Translations under genes and position numbers: made by a program | Shown: one piece after another, positions 2,639 through 49,616 of the stretch | How the letters are laid out: every line of letters starts with the position of its first letter | Numbering within the stretch: the first letter of the stretch is position 1 | From: Thermodesulfobacteriota bacterium | GTDB taxonomy: Bacteria; Desulfobacterota; BSN033; WVXP01; G020346125 | Length of the DNA: 64,000 nt | Direction of reading: 5' to 3' | Assembly (NCBI GenBank): GCA_041862515.1 | Contig: JBGVTJ010000317.1 | Span: 1,890-65,889 of the forward strand | The notes under the pieces: generated by a model | Seen by the model: only the letters and a program-made list of their open reading frames with translations | Databases searched by the model: none | Told to the model about the DNA's origin: nothing

Positions 2639-3061
2639 ATGTTAACTCCCAAAAAGGTTAAGCACAGGAAAATGCAAAAAGGGAGGATGAGGGGGAAGTC
2701 TCCTCGAGGGAATAACCTCAATTTCGGCGACTATGCACTCCAGGCGACTCAGTGCGGATGGGTGACGACACGCCAAATAGAAGCCGCCCGTATAGCCATA
2801 ACGCGATTCGTTAAAAGGACCGGGAAAGTATGGATTCGAGTCTTCCCCGATAAACCCACGACCAAAAAACCTGCAGAGACCAGGATGGGAAAGGGCAAGG
2901 GGGCTCCTGAGGACTGGGTAGTGGTGATCAGACCGGGGCGTATCCTTTACGAGATGGAGGGGGTTCCGGAGGAGAAAGCAAAGGAGGCCTTTCGGCTGGC
3001 CTCTCATAAACTCTCCGTAGCTACTCGATTTATCAGCCGAGGGAGAAGCCATGAAGGCTAG
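2639..3061 (+). CDS. rplP: 50S ribosomal protein L16
   Basis: 140 aa, [19 protein letters not shown]... L16. Confidence 0.96.
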
Positions 3062-24083: not shown

Positions 24084-25010
24084 GTGCAGCAGGAAAAGGG
24101 GGAGCATGGAGAGTGGCAAAAACCGACTAAGCCGTTATGTGGAGGAAACGAGTTGAAAATAAGAGATATCATGACGGAAAATCCCATCACCGTGGACCGC
24201 GAGACTTCCATTTTAGAGGCTATGGGGATTATGAAGGAGAACAACATTCGACGGCTCCCCGTAGTCGATAAGGGTAGACTGGTTGGGATGGTTACTGAAA
24301 GGATGATCTTGGAGGCTTTTCCCTCTCCGGCCATGTCGTTGTCGATTCACCAAGTCCGTTATCTTATAGAGACGGTGATGGTGAAGGATATCATGGTCAA
24401 AAACCCCATTACCATTCCTCCGGGTGCGAATTTTAAAGATGTACTACTCTTGTGTCATGAGAAAAGGATCTGCAGTTTCCTGAGTTTCTAGGGAGCACCG
24501 CTACTCATGAGCGATATTTACCGGAGAAGGGTCACATCAGAACAGGCCGTTGCCCGGGTTCCCTGGAGCGAACATTAAAGAATTTTGGCTACCCATTCTT
24601 AGGGAAGCGAAACGACCGCAAATCCATTGTCTGAGCCCAGAGGGCGAGTTTTGGATTTGCAGTGAAGCGAACTGTAGAATGGTCCAAAATTCTTTTCAGT
24701 GAGCGAAAGGGAATTTGGGCAACAGACCCGAGCAACCGGAGGGACAACGGTGTTCACTTATGAGAAATATAATCGCATTTATAATCAATAGGTTATAAGA
24801 ATCCCATCCAAAAAACTCAGGAAACTTCAGAAAAGGACCGGGGCCCTTCCCGTTGTGGACAAAGGAAAATTGGTAGAGATTGCCACCGAATCCGAAATCT
24901 CTCACCGTTGGTGCGAAGGGGTGGGTCGCCGTCAAACAACCGCTTGCCCCATGGGTTTTGGAAATCAGCGGCGTGCGACGGCGAGGAGGCAAATAAGAGC
25001 ACGAAAATAA
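24084..25010 (+). pseudogene. CBS-domain pair protein gene interrupted in frame by a ~360-bp MITE-like insertion (5' part 24084..24491 ends in a stop inside the insertion; 3' part resumes at ~24830 in the same frame)
   Basis: 5' ORF has CBS1 (IRRLPVVDKGRLVGMVTE) and truncated CBS2 ...LLCHEKRI|; downstream in the same frame ...QKRTGALPVVDKGKLVEIATESEI... completes CBS2; duplicated EKR codons flank the insertion. Confidence 0.65.
24469..24831. mobile_element. MITE-like non-autonomous element (~360 bp) with 19-21-bp imperfect terminal inverted repeats and ~8-10-bp target-site duplication
   Basis: Left end (TC)TGCAGTTTCCTGAGTTTCT; reverse complement of right end (TC)TGAAGTTTCCTGAGTTTTT (17/19, 19/21); flanking direct repeats GAAAAGGATC / GAAAAGGACC; no internal ORF; internal GAAGCGAA-type repeats. 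Confidence 0.7.
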
Positions 25011-25047
25011 TTGCAATGAGGAAAAACTTCAGAGTGGACTTTCTCAT
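24817..25047 (-). CDS. possible small secreted protein (uncertain; overlaps 3' remnant of CBS gene on opposite strand)
   Basis: MRKSTLKFFLIAIIFVLLFASSPSHA|ADFQNPWGKRL... convincing signal peptide, but overlaps the + strand CBS remnant. Confidence 0.3.
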   Translation of the reverse strand: MRKSTLKFFLIAIIFVLLFASSPSHAADFQNPWGKRLFDGDPPLRTNGERFRIRWQSLPIFLCPQREGPRSFSEVS

Positions 25048-43701: not shown

Positions 43702-45396
43702 ATGAAGAATTTCCTTATAGTAGGATTGGTGCTCCTTTTGATGGGCTGCTCAAATATCGTTCAACTTCACAAGGGAACCAAGGATGATAAACTAACAAGG
43801 GAATCTCCATCATACCCAGGGGAGACTGCCTCAAATCTGGGGGAAATTTTCGGTATGCCCACAGATGAGATAGTAGAGCTCCTTCAGGTAAGCGATTTTC
43901 TCCCTTCGAATCAGACTCTTGAAGGAGGAGAAGGAGAGTGGCAGGAACTCATTGTTGGCATTCCCGGTCCCCCCTTGGATGACCAAGTTCGTGCCTTCAG
44001 TGAACCGGATTTGCTTCCCATGGAACAAGGGCTCTTCGGGGGAGAAATGGAGGTTCAGCTTTCCCCCGACTTCCCTGGGGAAGATGAAGACAAACCCGTC
44101 CTAGAGGCGGAAACACACTTTCAAGATCAAGTTCCATCCCAGGAAGATGAGGCTGTCCGGGAACCCGTCTTCGATATCCCGATCATCATCAACGGGAAAG
44201 TGGAGCAGTTCATCAAATATTACCAGACCAAGGGACGGAAGGTCTTCAGTCGTTGGCTCGCACGATCAAGGAGGTATATCCCCTTGATGAAAAGACTCTT
44301 GAGGGAGAAGGGGCTGCCCGAGGATCTGGTCTATCTGGCCTTAATCGAAAGCGGGTATAATCCCCGTGCCTATTCGAGGCGAAAGGCTATGGGCCTCTGG
44401 CAGTTCAGGTATCAGACGGGAAAGCGGTACGGGCTGAAGGTTGACTGGTGGATCGATGAGCGGAGGGATCCGGTGAAATCAACAATCGCTGCCGCCAGAT
44501 ATCTGAAGCATCTCTACGATCGGTTTGAATGCTGGTATCTGGCGGCAGCCGGCTACAACGCCGGGGAGGGAAAGATCCTGAGGGCCATCAAGCGATACAA
44601 GACGGAGGATTTTTGGGAATTAACCAGGTATCCGTATTTGAAAAGGGAGACGAAAAACTTCATCCCCAAAATGATCGCTGCCGCTCTGGTCGCCAAGAAT
44701 CCGGAGGACTATGGTTTTTCAGACATTGCATACGAAGAGCCGATTCGTTTTGAAACGGTGAAGGTGCCCGATGCCACGGATTTACGGGTAATTGCCGCGG
44801 CATCAGAATCAACCTATGAGGAATTGAAACGCCTCAACCCAGAGCTGAGGAGGTGGTGTACTCCGCCCAATTATCCGGATTACGAGCTGAAACTTCCGGA
44901 TGGGAAAAAGGAAATCTTCTTGGAGAACTTCTCCAAAATCCCTCCTTCAAAGAGAATAACGTTCCGGAGGCACGTGGTTCGCTCCGGTGAAACCCTCTCT
45001 CACATCGCCCTTCGATACCGAACCGATATTGGGGCTATCATGAGGATGAACCGTATTAGAAACCTGCACCGCATTAGGGCCGGGCGATCTCTCATCATCC
45101 CTATCAGGGGAAGCGACAAATTCGAGAGGGGGATGATGGCGGAGAGGTTGTATCAGGGGAGGGATCTCTTTGACTACGAGGGGCAGGCTTTTATTTATAC
45201 CGTAAGGGAGGGTGATACCCTCTGGGATATTTCGCGTTCTGCCGGGATCGCTGTTGAAAGCCTCTGTCGCTGGAACGGAATTCAAAACGCCAGCAGGATT
45301 TACCCCGGAGATAAGCTAAAGATACCTGCTGACGACACATCCACCCCCTCGGGAACCGAGGGGAAAATCCCGTCTGCGAGAAATCCCGAGGGATAA
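43702..45396 (+). CDS. mltD: membrane-bound lytic murein transglycosylase D-like lipoprotein (SLT domain + 2 LysM)
   Basis: 564 aa; lipobox LLLMGCS; SLT motif ESGYNPRAYSRRKAMGLWQF; two C-terminal LysM repeats. Confidence 0.85.
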   Translation: MKNFLIVGLVLLLMGCSNIVQLHKGTKDDKLTRESPSYPGETASNLGEIFGMPTDEIVELLQVSDFLPSNQTLEGGEGEWQELIVGIPGPPLDDQVRAFSEPDLLPMEQGLFGGEMEVQLSPDFPGEDEDKPVLEAETHFQDQVPSQEDEAVREPVFDIPIIINGKVEQFIKYYQTKGRKVFSRWLARSRRYIPLMKRLLREKGLPEDLVYLALIESGYNPRAYSRRKAMGLWQFRYQTGKRYGLKVDWWIDERRDPVKSTIAAARYLKHLYDRFECWYLAAAGYNAGEGKILRAIKRYKTEDFWELTRYPYLKRETKNFIPKMIAAALVAKNPEDYGFSDIAYEEPIRFETVKVPDATDLRVIAAASESTYEELKRLNPELRRWCTPPNYPDYELKLPDGKKEIFLENFSKIPPSKRITFRRHVVRSGETLSHIALRYRTDIGAIMRMNRIRNLHRIRAGRSLIIPIRGSDKFERGMMAERLYQGRDLFDYEGQAFIYTVREGDTLWDISRSAGIAVESLCRWNGIQNASRIYPGDKLKIPADDTSTPSGTEGKIPSARNPEG

Positions 45397-45768
45397 TCTA
45401 TGTCGGAGTGAATGAGAGCGGCTTTCCATATTAATTCCTAATAGGTTGTTGCGCAAATCCCCCTGCGCTCACGAGAGGATTTTTTGACCATTCTCAAGCT
45501 CGCTTAGGCCAATTGAGCCCTCACGCGCCATTTCATGTCCTGGTTTACCCTTCGGTGGCAAACGGGGAAGAGTGTTCCCCTTTCCCCTCGGTAGGAATGA
45601 TTCCCAGGAATTCTTTCATATTCTTTCTGATGGTATAATGTCTCATCGGCAGCCTTTACGGTGGAGGTGAATCGGACCGCCACAGGGGTCCAGGTCATCG
45701 GCCGGGGTACCTGCACCCTTTCCTAAGAACCCGAATGAACCACGTGTCGGTCAAACCAACGGCATCGG

Positions 45769-47496
45769 ATGGAAAGAATTACGATGGGCGATCTGGAGGA
45801 GGGGATTAAAGCCGCCCGGGGAGACAAAAGGGTTAATCTCGTCTTGAAAAATGCAAACCTGATCAATGTCTTATCCGGAGAAATCTATCCCGCGGACGTG
45901 GCCATACATGGAGATACCATCGTGGGCATTGGTCACTATGAGGCGGAAAGGGAAATGGATTTGGGTGGGAAATTCCTCTGTCCCGGGTTCATAGACGCCC
46001 ATGTTCACATCGAAAGTAGTATGGTGATCCCTCCCGAATACGCCAAGGCAGTGGTTCCCCGGGGTACGACTTCCGTCATCAGCGACCCCCATGAGATTGC
46101 AAACGTGATGGGGATCGAGGGCATAACCCTCATGGCCGAGATGTCAGAGGGAATTCCCCTCAATACCTATATTATGCTCCCCTCCTGCGTCCCCGCGACG
46201 GAGATGGAAACCTCCGGGGCACGGCTCGATGCCCGGGATTTGGAAGGATTGGTGGATAAGGGGTGGGTGCTGGGCTTGGGGGAAGTAATGAACTTTCCCG
46301 GTGTGATCCAGTGCATGCCCGATATGCTGGAAAAAATTGAGATGGCCTCGGGAAAACCCATCGATGGCCATGGGCCTGGCCTCACGGGAAAAGACCTGGC
46401 TGCTTACATTACCGCCGGCATTCGGTCGGACCACGAATGCACGAACCTGGAGGAGGCCAGGGAAAAGCTTCGCAATGGGATGGCAATTCTGATCAGGGAA
46501 GGATCGATGGCCAAAAACCTGGAAGACCTCCTTCCCCTGGTGACCTCGGAAAATGCCCGGAGATGCCTCTTCGCATCGGACGATCGGCACCCCGACGACC
46601 TCATGGAGGAGGGGCATTTCGATTTCATCCTTCGCAAATCCATTGGGCTTGGATTGAAGCCCATTACGGCGATTCAGATGGCCACCATCAATGTGGCCGA
46701 GATTTATGGGCTAAGGAATGTGGGGGCAGTTGCCCCCGGATTTAGAGCGGACCTCGTCGTCCTCGATGATTTGGAATCATTCATCATTGACGGTGTCTTT
46801 AAGGATGGGAGACTGGTAGCCCAGGGAGGGAAGATGTTGCCCGGGATCATATCCCCCAAAGAGATCGAGATGAGAAATACCGTGAAGGTGAGGTCCATTA
46901 GCCCAGGGGCGATAGCGATAAGGGCGCAAGGACCCCTGGCCAAAATCATCGAGATCATCCCCGGTCAGCTCATTACGAAGGCAGTCGTTGAACCGGTAAC
47001 CATAAGGAATGGGAAAGCAGAAGCGGATCCGGAACGGGACATCCTCAAGGTGGCCGTTTTCGAAAGGCATACTGCTTCGGGGAACATCGGGCTGGGTTTC
47101 GTGAGGGGCTTTGGACTTACGGGTGGGGCCATGGGTTCTTCTGTAGTTCATGACGCCCACAATATCGCTGTCGTCGGAGATAACGATATTGATATGGCAA
47201 TGGCTGCGGGAGAAATAGCGAAGATGGGAGGTGGCCTCGTCATTGTTCAAGGTGGGAAAATTTTGGGGTCTTTGGCGCTTCCCATAGCCGGGCTCATGTC
47301 CGATAAGGGCATCGAGCATGTGGGGAAACGACTGAAGTTTATGAGAAAAATTGCCCGAGACATGGGATGTAGACTGGGAGATCCCTTTATGGCCCTCGCC
47401 TTCTTATCCCTTCCCGTAATTCCGGAACTCAGGGTCACCGACCGAGGATTGGTTGACGTCAGTCAATTTCGGATCGTCCCCCTTTTCGGGGAGTAA
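45769..47496 (+). CDS. ade: adenine deaminase
   Basis: 575 aa amidohydrolase, GFIDAHVHIESS motif, length typical of Ade. Confidence 0.85.
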   Translation: MERITMGDLEEGIKAARGDKRVNLVLKNANLINVLSGEIYPADVAIHGDTIVGIGHYEAEREMDLGGKFLCPGFIDAHVHIESSMVIPPEYAKAVVPRGTTSVISDPHEIANVMGIEGITLMAEMSEGIPLNTYIMLPSCVPATEMETSGARLDARDLEGLVDKGWVLGLGEVMNFPGVIQCMPDMLEKIEMASGKPIDGHGPGLTGKDLAAYITAGIRSDHECTNLEEAREKLRNGMAILIREGSMAKNLEDLLPLVTSENARRCLFASDDRHPDDLMEEGHFDFILRKSIGLGLKPITAIQMATINVAEIYGLRNVGAVAPGFRADLVVLDDLESFIIDGVFKDGRLVAQGGKMLPGIISPKEIEMRNTVKVRSISPGAIAIRAQGPLAKIIEIIPGQLITKAVVEPVTIRNGKAEADPERDILKVAVFERHTASGNIGLGFVRGFGLTGGAMGSSVVHDAHNIAVVGDNDIDMAMAAGEIAKMGGGLVIVQGGKILGSLALPIAGLMSDKGIEHVGKRLKFMRKIARDMGCRLGDPFMALAFLSLPVIPELRVTDRGLVDVSQFRIVPLFGE

Positions 47497-48333: not shown

Positions 48334-48881
48334 GATCTCAAGAATCTTTCATAGGAGACGATCTTATTGATTCGCTTCCCCGAGTGGAGAATAAGGATTC
48401 CTTCGGCATCGTCGTAACCGATGGCCACCGAAAAATGCCGTATCTGAAGGAGAGGGTACCCCAAATCCTGGAAGACGATGAGCGGACGATCCTTCGAAAT
48501 ATGGCCCTTTAAGTCGGATATGCTTCCCCTGTAGGCCCTGGCATCAAACCCCATCCTTCGGGCAAAAAGGATCATGTCGATGCTGAGGGTTCCCTTTAAC
48601 GGTTTCTTGTAAATCGCCTCCACAATCGTCCCTTGAGTTACTCGGCATCCGTAGTAATTGAGGACGCTGGCTAAGGCTGCGGGACCGCATTGATACTTGG
48701 ATTGGGCGAAAAAGGGGACACCGGAGATGTAATGTCTAGTTGCAGGGTCTTCGGGACCCGCCTTCCCGACTGGAACGAGGCCTTGCCGAGCGCAACGAAG
48801 GAAAATGAGGCCCAGCAGGATCGTGAGAAAAAGGGCCCTTCTCATCGTTCCGTGGCGACCGAGGGCCTCAGAAATTACCAT
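48249..48881 (-). CDS. C39-like (papain-fold) cysteine peptidase, PA2778-family-like
   Basis: 210 aa; catalytic-Cys region SKYQCGPAALASVLNYYG; signal peptide from MRRALFLTILL (probable start 48845). Confidence 0.75.
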   Translation of the reverse strand: MVISEALGRHGTMRRALFLTILLGLIFLRCARQGLVPVGKAGPEDPATRHYISGVPFFAQSKYQCGPAALASVLNYYGCRVTQGTIVEAIYKKPLKGTLSIDMILFARRMGFDARAYRGSISDLKGHISKDRPLIVFQDLGYPLLQIRHFSVAIGYDDAEGILILHSGKRINKIVSYERFLRSWARMDYWTLLILPNREAGDSLNLPTSS

Positions 48882-49345
48882 TTCAGAACGTCTATGACTC
48901 CCGCTATTTCCAGGACAAGGAATCCGATAAGCGCCAAGAGAACGATTATGATGACAGTCACAGCGCCGTTTCCTCCTGGCTCCAAGGCATGGATTTGGCT
49001 GGCGATCTGGTGGATTTGTTCATCATCGAGCTGGTGAAGCCGAGCCTCGATTTCCTCATTAGTCAATCCGAGTTTCGAAAGTTTGTGTTGGACGAGTTTT
49101 GACTCCAGGAGTTTTTGGATTGTCTGGAGGTCGGTGTCTCTATGGCTGGTTCCATTCCCCTCGTACGAGGATGGAATGAACATGGCTGGTGCACTACTGG
49201 CAAAGGATAAAATTGAAAAGGCCACAGTGAGATACGACACAAATACCCTATTAAAAAAGAATCTCTTGACGAAGATCATGAGCTCCCCTCCTTTTTCATG
49301 GGTTGATAATCCATATCGCGTATCAAAATTTTCCCGCATTGTCAA
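48875..49345 (-). CDS. small signal-peptide protein with C-terminal TM anchor (PA2779-family-like)
   Basis: ORF 156 aa, probable start MIFVKRFFFNRVF... (49279); C-terminal GGNGAVTVIIIVLLALIGFLVLEIAG TM. Confidence 0.6.
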   Translation of the reverse strand: MTMRENFDTRYGLSTHEKGGELMIFVKRFFFNRVFVSYLTVAFSILSFASSAPAMFIPSSYEGNGTSHRDTDLQTIQKLLESKLVQHKLSKLGLTNEEIEARLHQLDDEQIHQIASQIHALEPGGNGAVTVIIIVLLALIGFLVLEIAGVIDVLKW

Positions 49346-49616
49346 GTCTAAAATGTGTGGGAGTTTCCTGGGTTTTTCTCCTGCGATTCTGTGACATAGT
49401 GATCTAAAAAAGGAAGTAAAATTTCAAAAGTGAAAAGGCCGTTGTCTTCTGCTCTAAAAATATTGCCGAGTTTGGAGGAAGGGTCGGCTAAAAGTTCGTA
49501 CCAGAGCGAAAAAGAGAATGTCCATGGAAGAAAATACCATCATGGGAGCCAAAATCAACACTCAGCTCTCTAAAATCTCGGGAATCATTTCTGAATTCTG
49601 CCACAAGCGCGAGCGA

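What the first reader, a model, noticed from the sequence alone, without database searches (positions are those of the whole stretch)
24459..24840. MITE-like insertion (imperfect TIRs + target-site duplication) splitting a CBS-pair gene in frame
The CBS ORF ends ...LLCHEKRI then CSFLSF* inside an insert. 369 nt later the same reading frame resumes QKRTGALPVVDKGKLVEIATESEI..., completing the second CBS motif. The insert is bounded by TCTGCAGTTTCCTGAGTTTCT and, reverse-complemented, TCTGAAGTTTCCTGAGTTTTT (19/21), and flanked by direct repeats GAAAAGGATC / GAAAAGGACC, which duplicate the E-K-R codons. There is no coding capacity inside, and GAAGCGAA-like motifs repeat four times. This is a hallmark non-autonomous transposable element. 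Such elements are useful strain markers and occasionally carry regulatory RNAs.
Basis: seen in the sequence. Interest (0 to 1): 0.65.

Follow-up and report, generated by a model that had tools for sequence, protein, structure and literature searches.

The report
Composite MITE splitting a CBS gene
A 361-bp non-autonomous transposon, mobilised by a common but mostly unannotated IS4-like insertion sequence, recently landed in and broke a CBS-domain gene; it is an ordinary kind of element, except that its core is a conserved long hairpin that also occurs on its own elsewhere.

Summary
Window 24470-24830 is a 361-bp insert with 20-bp terminal inverted repeats (CTGCAGTTTCCTGAGTTTCT / CTGAAGTTTCCTGAGTTTTT). 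It is flanked by a duplicated AAAAGGAT/AAAAGGAC and has stops in all six frames.

- **Empty site:** a syntenic contig 98.8-99.6% identical (L001) and a more distant relative (L002) carry the intact CBS gene. Another metagenome (L126) has the same filled allele.
- **Parent element:** the consensus repeat CTGGAGTTTCCTGAGTTTT occurs at more than 117 loci in Thermodesulfobacteriota, Nitrospirota and Syntrophales MAGs. It bounds 1.45-1.46-kb insertion sequences with one 384-436-aa IS4/IS701-like DDE transposase and 8-10-bp AT-rich duplications. No such transposase lies in the window.
- **Other copies:** close relatives sit at unrelated loci (L008, L127, L080, L047).
- **Composite structure:** the core (24529-24732) is a ~185-nt hairpin. 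The four AGCGAA motifs are its unpaired internal loops. It also occurs without the repeats (L129, L131-135, L138; decayed copy at window 45439-45648). Its helices covary strongly (37 of 56 pairs). It matches no Rfam family.

Whether the hairpin is a nested second mobile element or a functional RNA or ssDNA module is unresolved. Overall this is a new member of a known kind, of moderate interest.

The parts
24153..24469 (+). 5' part of the CBS-pair gene (first CBS motif and the start of the second). The ORF runs on into the insert and stops at 24489-24491.
   Evidence: ORF list and translation. Pfam CBS match on the reconstructed protein. It is identical to NCBI MFB0508285.1, a 112-aa protein from a Thermodesulfobacteriota MAG.
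24462..24469 (.). Left copy of the target-site duplication, AAAAGGAT (extendable to GAAAAGGATC if the ends are read as TG...CA).
   Evidence: The empty sites in L001 and L002 hold a single AGAAAAGGATCGGGG. Both window flanks align to L001 2999-3010.
24470..24489 (+). Left terminal inverted repeat, CTGCAGTTTCCTGAGTTTCT.
   Evidence: Inverted-repeat search. It matches the family consensus CTGGAGTTTCCTGAGTTTT seen at more than 117 loci.
24470..24528 (+). Left end segment of the MITE subfamily.
   Evidence: 76-83% identical to the left ends in L127, L047, L136, L008 and L080.
24529..24732 (+). Passenger hairpin, called module A here. It is a ~185-nt imperfect palindrome with four unpaired AGCGAA loops (24567, 24606, 24666, 24702), the apical motif TGTCTGA-GCCC-AGA-GGGC-GAGTTT, and a 5' GGGTCAC extension.
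   Evidence: Nested inverted repeats and fold. Covariance-model hit at 24545-24732, 208 bits. Covariation: 37 of 56 pairs with changes on both sides, 90% of cells paired. Copies without terminal repeats in L129, L131-135 and L138.
24733..24830 (+). Right end segment. It corresponds to the transposase-upstream end of the parent IS, sharing ..AACCTATTGA.. next to the repeat.
   Evidence: 80-83% identical to the right ends in L127, L047, L008 and L080. Compared by eye with the IS ends printed.
24811..24830 (-). Right terminal inverted repeat (reverse complement CTGAAGTTTCCTGAGTTTTT).
24831..24838 (.). Right copy of the target-site duplication, AAAAGGAC (one T-to-C change, which would turn Ile into Thr after excision).
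24831..25010 (+). Orphaned 3' part of the CBS gene (rest of the second CBS motif and the tail), in the same frame as the 5' part.
   Evidence: Reconstruction and alignment with the uninterrupted P0001 (97% identity) and P0002.
45439..45648 (-). Second, decayed copy of the hairpin module. It lies between two genes and has no terminal repeats.
   Evidence: BLAST core match, nhmmer E = 4.7e-15, covariance model 157 bits. Only 29 of 56 pairs are still Watson-Crick.
49362..49446 (-). Probable solo remnant of a MITE right end (…AAAAACCCAGGAAACTCCC).
   Evidence: 72% identity over 87 nt to the element's right end. No matching left end was found.

Best explanation
Window 24470-24830 is a 361-bp non-autonomous DNA transposon (MITE) of an IS4-like insertion-sequence family. 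A DDE transposase supplied in trans by a ~1.46-kb autonomous relative recognises the 20-bp terminal inverted repeats, cuts the element out and pastes it into an AT-rich target with staggered cuts. Repair of those cuts produced the 8-10-bp duplication AAAAGGAT(C).

The insertion landed in codon ~106 of a 156-codon CBS-pair gene. It introduces a stop six codons in and separates the second CBS motif from the first, so the gene is most likely inactivated in this strain. The insertion is recent, because it is polymorphic among strains about 99% identical.

Shown: the repeats, the duplication, the empty site, other copies, a parental IS with the same repeats, and the absence of coding capacity. Inferred: cut-and-paste mobilisation in trans, and loss of CBS function.

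The element is composite. Between IS-derived ends it carries a ~185-nt covarying hairpin (module A). The hairpin is absent from the parental IS copies examined and also occurs alone elsewhere. It is best read as a passenger or nested repeat.
For: - **Repeats and duplication:**
- **Empty site, close relative:** L001 is syntenic (radical SAM-CBS-CSD-STAS), 98.8% identical over 3010 nt on the left and 99.6% over 797 nt on the right. It has one copy of the target and an intact 156-aa CBS protein.
- **Empty site, distant relative:** L002 (87% identical CBS protein) is also empty, so empty is the ancestral state.
- **Not an assembly artefact:** the same filled allele was assembled independently in JGI sample 3300009034 (L126, 99.6% identical).
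- **Other copies at unrelated loci:** L008 (78% identity), L127/L128 (82%), L080 and L047.
- **Parent IS:** the 19-mer repeat hit more than 117 loci. Pairs 1453-1464 bp apart enclose one 384-436-aa ORF. That ORF is weakly IS701/IS4-like in NCBIfam (E about 1e-11), weakly matches Pfam DDE_Tnp_1, and its best PDB matches are Tn5 transposase.
- **Family duplications:** twelve family members show 8-10-bp AT-rich duplications, and L024 has 9 bp. This fits the ~10-bp duplications and 5'-CT ends of IS4-family subgroups (PMC2266710).
- **Deletion derivative:** L019 is a plain internal-deletion derivative of the IS, which shows how such MITEs arise.
- **Non-autonomous here:** stops in all six frames and no transposase homologue in the window.
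Against: - No autonomous IS of this family lies in the 64-kb window, and the rest of the genome could not be searched. A source of transposase in this organism is therefore inferred, not shown.
- This copy's repeats differ from the consensus at position 4 on both ends (CTGCAG and CTGAAG against CTGGAG) and at position 19 on the left end. The duplication also has one mismatch. The copy may no longer be mobile.
- The transposase scores far below the curated cut-offs for IS4 and IS701, so the family assignment of the parent is approximate.
- The internal sequence is not derived from the parental IS copies examined, so it is not a simple deletion derivative.
Confidence: 0.9

Rival explanations
1. 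The core hairpin (24529-24732) is the functional unit: a structured RNA, or a single-stranded DNA hairpin, read from the + strand. It is kept by selection and is spread both by IS4-like MITEs and on its own. On this view the MITE ends are only a vehicle.
For: - Covariation on 11 copies: 90.1% of cells paired, 37 of 56 pairs changed on both sides, score 0.472 against 0.198 in shuffles (0 of 500 reach it) and at most 0.148 when partners are slid.
- A MAFFT alignment made without the model also shows 13 pairs changed on both sides.
- Very divergent copies (L024, L087, L031; 59-70 bits) replace whole helices yet keep the unpaired AGCGAA loops and the apical TGTYTGA...GAGTTT motif.
- The loops have the same sequence on both arms rather than complementary sequences, which argues for a strand-specific constraint.
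- The + strand folds 8-16 kcal/mol better than the - strand in 7 of 7 copies.
- G·U pairs outnumber A·C pairs 35 to 9 once the decayed copy is excluded.
- Copies without terminal repeats exist.
Against: - No Rfam family matches.
- No promoter-like or terminator-like site lies inside the element.
- Copies have no consistent orientation relative to neighbouring genes: sense within CBS, antisense at 45.5 kb, in the 5' UTR of rubrerythrin in L131, convergent in L129.
- Palindromic mobile elements also keep their arms complementary, so covariation alone does not prove an RNA.
- The alignment was fitted to the structure, and the copies share ancestry.
- There is no expression data.
Confidence: 0.25
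2. The core hairpin is itself a second, unrelated non-autonomous mobile element: a nested MITE or REP-like palindrome with ends GGnnGTTGCCC...GGGCAACnnCC. It inserted into an older MITE, and the composite was then amplified.
For: - At least 34 distinct copies were detected through a spurious ORF in metagenomes. About two thirds of them are outside the MITE context.
- Stand-alone copies 86-88% identical lie at unrelated intergenic sites.
- L047 has the same MITE ends but lacks most of the module, L080 has another module (B) plus A, and L136 carries A in inverted orientation.
- The module has 16-20-bp inverted termini.
Against: - No target-site duplication or empty site could be defined for the module.
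- No candidate transposase lies next to any stand-alone copy (gene lists).
- Distantly related MITEs of the same repeat family (WVXP01 MAG) also carry A-like cores. This points to an old, stable association rather than a single nested insertion.
Confidence: 0.35
3. The segment is an intervening sequence that leaves the CBS gene functional: either a self-splicing intron, or a translated in-frame palindromic insert like the Rickettsia palindromic elements.
For: The insert plus the duplication is 369 nt, a multiple of three, and the downstream frame is intact.
Against: - Stops in every frame, the first six codons into the insert.
- No group I or group II intron hit, nor any other Rfam hit, even at E <= 10.
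- The terminal repeats, the duplication and an IS with the same repeats point to DNA transposition.
- Family members have lengths of 195-534 bp with no multiple-of-three pattern.
Confidence: 0.02
4. The insert is an assembly chimera in the MAG contig.
For: None specific. Repeats often cause misassembly, and many repeat hits lie at contig ends.
Against: An independent JGI assembly (L126) has the identical junctions and element across 3.8 kb. The flanks show a clean duplication of the target.
Confidence: 0.01

Closest known systems
Bacterial MITEs derived from IS4-superfamily insertion sequences
   Same: - Small size (361 bp), no ORF, and 20-bp terminal inverted repeats identical to those of an autonomous IS.
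- 8-10-bp target duplication, multiple dispersed copies, and a strong fold-back structure.
- Insertion inside a gene, with presence/absence polymorphism between strains.
   Different: - The interior is not a deletion remnant of the IS. It is a separately occurring ~185-nt hairpin module.
- The parental IS is mostly annotated only as 'hypothetical protein'.
IS4 family proper (IS10, IS50, IS4Sa and ISPepr1 subgroups; PMC2266710)
   Same: - Size of 1.45-1.46 kb and a single transposase ORF without a frameshift.
- 5'-CT ends and duplications of about 8-10 bp in AT-rich targets.
- A YREK-like motif (Y-x2-R ... K) near the C-terminus.
   Different: - NCBIfam scores of about 44 bits lie far below the cut-offs (150-250), and IS701 models score as well as IS4 models.
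- Pfam DDE_Tnp_1 reaches only E = 0.03.
- The motif reads YLTRWKCDESFRYIK. The canonical spacing Y-2-R-3-x-6-K puts D, not E, at the catalytic position, with E next to it.
- IS701 itself makes 4-bp duplications, which does not fit.
MITE carrying foreign internal sequence (for example the minisatellite-containing MITE of Porphyromonas gingivalis, PMC4596501) and nested MITEs
   Same: IS-type ends enclose internal sequence that does not come from the transposase gene, and variants differ in modular content (A, B, B+A).
   Different: Here the passenger is a covarying long hairpin that also exists as stand-alone copies, not a tandem repeat.
Palindromic intergenic repeats that fold as RNA or ssDNA hairpins (ERIC/IRU, Correia/NEMIS, RUP, REP/REPIN; from my own knowledge)
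   Same: For module A: an imperfect palindrome of 100-200 nt, many dispersed copies, either orientation, mostly intergenic, and able to lie in UTRs.
   Different: - No sequence similarity to these was tested or seen.
- REPINs have complementary REP arms with a GTAG motif and a RAYT partner. Module A has identical purine-rich loops on both arms, and no RAYT was seen nearby.
Rickettsia palindromic elements (in-frame insertions in genes; from my own knowledge)
   Same: A palindromic repeat inserted in a coding region, with a length that is a multiple of three.
   Different: Rickettsia palindromic elements stay open and are translated. This insert has stops in all frames, so it truncates the protein.

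Membership tests
Bacterial MITE (non-autonomous DDE transposon) | Terminal inverted repeats at both ends | tested here: met
   21/24 complementary. From the CTG start, 18/20 between the two ends, and each end matches the family consensus at 18-19 of 20 positions.
Bacterial MITE (non-autonomous DDE transposon) | Target-site duplication, with a single copy of the target at the empty site | tested here: met
   AAAAGGAT / AAAAGGAC flank the element. L001 and L002 have one AGAAAAGGATCGGGG.
Bacterial MITE (non-autonomous DDE transposon) | Small size and no transposase gene | tested here: met
   361 bp with stops in all six frames.
Bacterial MITE (non-autonomous DDE transposon) | Several copies at unrelated loci | tested here: met
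   L008, L127/128, L080, L047 and L136 have different flanks. All of these are in other genomes or metagenomes. Within this window there is only a possible end remnant at 49362-49446.
Bacterial MITE (non-autonomous DDE transposon) | An autonomous IS with the same terminal repeats | tested here: met
   L013, L015, L060, L078, L101 and L121 are 1453-1464 bp, have the same 19-20-nt ends and encode one 384-436-aa DDE-like ORF.
Bacterial MITE (non-autonomous DDE transposon) | The autonomous partner is present in the same genome | not testable with these tools
   No homologue in the 64-kb window (tblastn).
IS4 family (for the parental IS) | DDE transposase that passes the curated family models | tested here: not met
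   NCBIfam IS4 and IS701 models give 40-45 bits against cut-offs of 150-250. Pfam DDE_Tnp_1 gives 14 bits against 23. Tn5 transposase is the best PDB hit, but at E about 0.4.
IS4 family (for the parental IS) | Y-(2)-R-(3)-E-(6)-K signature | tested here: inconclusive
   YLTRWKCDESFRYIK in L013 and YLARWKCDESYRYIK in L078. Y-2-R and K are present. The canonical spacing falls on D, with E adjacent. The definition is from PMC2266710.
IS4 family (for the parental IS) | Target duplication of about 10 bp (8-13), not the 4-6 bp of IS701, ISH3 and IS1634 | tested here: met
   8-10 bp in 12 copies and 9 bp in L024. The criterion is from PMC2266710.
Self-splicing intron (group I or II) | Match to the intron covariance models | tested here: not met
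   No Rfam hit at the gathering thresholds for the window, and none at E <= 10 for 24300-25000.
Translated in-frame palindromic element (like the Rickettsia palindromic elements) | An open reading frame maintained through the insert | tested here: not met
   A stop comes six codons into the insert, and there are stops in all frames.
Any described structured RNA family (for the hairpin module) | Rfam covariance-model match | tested here: not met
   No relevant hit for the window copy or for the module copies in L129, L131, L138 and L024.
REP/REPIN (for the hairpin module) | Inverted pair of short REP units with a conserved GTAG, and an associated RAYT transposase | not tested
   No RAYT search was run. 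By inspection, the arms carry identical (not complementary) AGCGAA loops, and GTAG is not conserved.

The most novel reading that the evidence does not exclude
The ~185-nt core hairpin is an undescribed class of structured RNA, or a single-stranded-DNA hairpin. It has pseudo-symmetric purine-rich AGCGAA internal loops and a conserved TGTYTGA-stem-GAGTTT cap. It is kept by selection across Thermodesulfobacteriota and related MAGs, and is spread both as stand-alone copies and as cargo of IS4-like MITEs. It might act as a protein-binding rod that affects transposition or neighbouring transcripts.
Probability: 0.25. Interest if true: 0.6.

Novelty: new member of a known kind. Interest (0 to 1): 0.38.

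Why it matters
- **Strain marker:** the insertion marks a recent gene-inactivating transposition in an uncultured Thermodesulfobacteriota lineage, since both filled and empty alleles exist in public metagenomes.
- **Annotation gap:** it exposes a very abundant insertion-sequence family (2389 protein clusters at E <= 1e-20). Sources mostly call it 'hypothetical', and it breaks many MAG assemblies. Its ends, CTGGAGTTTCCTGAGTTTT, and its 8-10-bp duplications are defined here and could be added to annotation resources.
- **Candidate structured element:** the passenger hairpin, with strong covariation and conserved loops, deserves an expression test. If it proves functional, it would be an example of a structured RNA or ssDNA module spread by MITEs.

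Tried and rejected
- **Known RNA families and tRNAs:** Rfam at gathering thresholds on the whole window, at E <= 10 on 24300-25000, and at E <= 1 on four loci with module copies gave nothing relevant. The tRNA/tmRNA scan found none. The intron and known-RNA readings were rejected.
- **Promoters and terminators:** the scan found no site inside the element.
- **Exact-protein look-ups:** the radical SAM neighbour and P0121 were not on record. Spurious ORFs from the window's own element were not in the collection.
- **Transposase classification:** tblastn against plasmids gave one weak Deinococcus hit annotated 'transposase', which did not help. PDB gave only non-significant Tn5 matches.
- **Second full copy in the window:** the 49.4-kb match is only an end fragment with no partner repeat. 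The 45.5-kb match is the hairpin module without repeats.
- **Viral contigs:** a scan for the apical motif gave one contig with a smaller hairpin that the covariance model does not recognise.
- **CBS tail as a repeat:** I tested whether the unusual C-terminal tail region of the CBS gene (24860-25030) is another repeat. Only orthologous loci matched.
- **CBS paralogue:** none in the window that could compensate for the loss.
- **In-frame length as a family property:** rejected, because lengths of 195-534 bp show no multiple-of-three pattern.
Full report
**1. Observation**

The CBS ORF starts at TTG 24153, reads ...LLCHEKRI, then CSFLSF, and stops at 24489-24491. The same frame resumes at 24831 with KRTGALPVVDKGKLVEIATESEI..., exactly 369 nt after the matching codon at 24462.

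Removing 369 nt gives a protein with two Pfam CBS hits (E = 1.2e-31). The ends form an inverted repeat, 24469-24492 with 24808-24831, 21/24 complementary. GAAAAGGATC and GAAAAGGACC flank the insert.

The insert has stops in all six frames. AGCGAA occurs four times in it, against 0.09 expected. As RNA the segment folds at -137.7 kcal/mol, z = -8.0 against dinucleotide shuffles.

**2. It is an insertion, and a recent one**

A protein search with the reconstructed CBS protein found P0001, which is 156 aa, 97% identical and uninterrupted. Its contig L001 is syntenic (radical SAM/SPASM - CBS - cold-shock protein - STAS). It is 98.8% identical to the window over 3010 nt on the left of the site and 99.6% over 797 nt on the right.

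Both window flanks align to the same L001 bases, 2999-3010. The empty site reads CAACAGAAAAGGATCGGGGCCC, with a single copy of the duplicated motif. A more distant relative, L002 (CBS protein 87% identical), is also empty, so empty is the ancestral state.

The filled allele is not an assembly artefact. JGI contig L126 carries the identical element and junctions and is 99.6% identical over 3810 nt. NCBI protein MFB0508285.1, from a Thermodesulfobacteriota MAG contig of 66,176 nt, is exactly the truncated product.

**3. The terminal-repeat family and its parent**

A metagenome scan for both repeat cores at the right spacing returned five loci.
- L008 is a close relative of the whole element at an unrelated intergenic site.
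- L004/L006 and L005/L007 share only the ends, CTGGAGTTTCCTGAGTTTTT.

The hits lie in Thermodesulfobacteriota ('Deltaproteobacteria'), Syntrophales, Nitrospirota and others, and many sit at contig ends.

Inverted pairs 1453-1464 bp apart (L013, L015, L060, L078, L101, L121) enclose a single ORF of 384-436 aa. That ORF matches as follows:
- NCBIfam IS701 and IS4 transposase models at E about 1e-11, far below the curated cut-offs.
- Pfam DDE_Tnp_1 at E = 0.03.
- Tn5 transposase as the best, non-significant, PDB hit.

It has 2389 homologue clusters at E <= 1e-20 in metagenomes. Most are on contigs of about 1.5 kb and are named 'hypothetical protein'.

With ends defined as CTGGAG...CTCCAG, twelve copies show 8-10-bp, mostly AT-rich, duplications, and L024 has 9 bp. 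Under that definition the window element is 24470-24830 (361 bp) with AAAAGGAT/AAAAGGAC. A 10-bp reading with TG...CA ends is equally compatible.

According to the IS4 family review (PMC2266710):
- IS4-family members make duplications of about 10 bp.
- Several subgroups have 5'-CT ends.
- IS701, ISH3 and IS1634 make duplications of 4-6 bp.

The parent therefore behaves like the IS4 family proper. Its YREK region reads YLTRWKCDESFRYIK, with D at the canonical E position.

L019 (503 bp) is a plain internal-deletion derivative of an L078-like IS. No homologue of the transposase is present in the window.

**4. The element is composite**

Aligning the window copy with L008, L080 and L047 shows three parts:
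- A shared left end of about 60 nt.
- A shared right end of about 100 nt. Next to the repeat, this end resembles the transposase-upstream end of the IS (..AACCTATTGA..).
- A variable interior. The window copy, L008 and L127 carry a core called module A here. L047 carries a different core, B. L080 carries B plus A.

A profile made from a spurious minus-strand ORF of module A found 34 distinct 'proteins' in metagenomes. Their N-termini show about 11 in the MITE context and about 21 outside it.

Contigs fetched for these hits confirm stand-alone modules 86-88% identical and without any terminal repeat:
- L129/L130, between an FMN oxidoreductase gene and a CoA-ligase gene.
- L131-L135, 27 nt upstream of a rubrerythrin start codon.
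- L138.

L136 has the left MITE end, module B and an inverted module A, with no right end. The window itself holds a second, decayed module at 45439-45648 on the minus strand.

**5. The hairpin module**

Module A (24529-24732) is a rod-like hairpin of four helices. The helices are separated by internal loops whose two sides carry the same sequence rather than complementary ones:
- GGAGCGAAC opposite GTGAGCGAAAG.
- GGAAGCGAAAC opposite GTGAAGCGAAC.

It is capped by TGTCTGA-GCCC-AGA-GGGC-GAGTTT.

A covariance model built from seven copies found only the two window copies. It also found distant versions inside MITEs of a different MAG (L024, L087 twice, L031; 59-70 bits). It found nothing in the parental IS copies.

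On the 11-sequence alignment:
- 90.1% of cells pair.
- 37 of 56 pairs show changes on both sides.
- The covariation score is 0.472. Shuffles average 0.198 (0 of 500 reach the observed value) and slid partners reach at most 0.148.

In the distant copies whole helices are replaced while the loops and the cap are kept. The + strand folds 8-16 kcal/mol better than its complement in 7 of 7 copies. G·U pairs outnumber A·C pairs 35 to 9 once the decayed copy is excluded.

Three caveats apply. The alignment was fitted to the structure, the copies share ancestry, and palindromic mobile DNA also keeps its arms complementary. No Rfam family matches. No promoter-like or terminator-like site was found in the element. 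Orientation relative to neighbouring genes is not consistent.

**6. Interpretation**

The best-supported explanation (confidence 0.9) is a non-autonomous IS4-like MITE. It transposed by transposase supplied in trans into an AT-rich site in the CBS gene and truncated the protein after residue ~106. The insertion is polymorphic among strains about 99% identical.

The in-frame length is a coincidence. Family members range from 195 to 534 bp with no multiple-of-three pattern, and the insert has stops. The CBS gene is followed by a convergent cold-shock gene, so polar effects are unlikely (inference). No CBS paralogue is in the window.

The nature of the core remains open. It could be a nested second mobile palindrome (0.35) or a functional strand-specific RNA or ssDNA module (0.25); otherwise it is an inert passenger. 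The intron, translated-insert and artefact readings are rejected.

**7. Comparison and verdict**

The element meets every testable defining feature of a bacterial MITE. The parent resembles the IS4 family in size, ends and duplication length, but fails the curated model cut-offs, so it is best called IS4-like. MITEs with foreign cargo are known (for example PMC4596501).

This is a new member of a known kind. Two modest points of interest are an abundant, poorly annotated IS family with defined ends, and a conserved, covarying hairpin cargo that also occurs alone. Interest is 0.38.

Noticed in passing
window 45439-45648 (- strand): A second, decayed copy of the ~185-nt hairpin module lies between two + strand genes (43702-45396 and 45769-47496), with no terminal repeats. 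It scores 157 bits with the covariance model, but only 29 of 56 pairs are still Watson-Crick.
   Followed up: yes
window 49362-49446 (- strand): An 87-nt stretch 72% identical to the MITE right end, ending ...AAAAACCCAGGAAACTCCC. It lies next to the start of the ORF 48875-49345 (-). No partner left end was found, so it is probably a solo end remnant.
   Followed up: partly
window 24872-24960; protein P0003: The tail of this CBS protein (..IATESEISHRWCEGVGRRQTTA..) departs from the usual ..GITTESDLVRF.. ending of its homologues. The same tail recurs at the very C-terminus of the 246-aa CBS+ACT-like protein P0003 (..GIATESEISHHWWEGVGRRQTAA). BLAST found no repeat among the fetched loci, and the origin of the shared tail is unexplained.
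   Followed up: partly
L013 1080-2543, L078 4706-6158 and similar loci: The parental IS family is very abundant in metagenomes (2389 clusters at E <= 1e-20, mostly on ~1.5-kb contigs) but is usually annotated 'hypothetical protein'. Its YREK-like motif has D at the canonical catalytic E position (YLTRWKCDESFRYIK). Each IS also has a second, internal repeat-like motif (AAGATTCCTGAGTT) about 100 nt inside the transposase-upstream end.
   Followed up: partly
L047 2675-2966, L080 2719-3252, L136 491-730: A second modular core (B: ...GGTGAGCAG...GGGGAAGGCCAGC..TTAG.GGCTGGAAGG...) occupies the same MITE ends, either alone or next to the hairpin module. In L136 the hairpin module is inverted and the right MITE end is missing, which suggests rearrangement at the palindrome.
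   Followed up: partly
L139 90-190 (IMG/VR contig IMGVR_UViG_3300007222_000210): A shorter hairpin of about 85 nt carries the same apical motif (CTGTTTGAGCCCGTAGGGCGAGTTT) in a contig classed as viral. The covariance model for the full module does not recognise it.
   Followed up: partly
L131 3002-3211 (and L132-L135): A stand-alone hairpin module ends 27 nt upstream of the rubrerythrin start codon in the same orientation, so it would lie in that gene's 5' UTR if co-transcribed.
   Followed up: no
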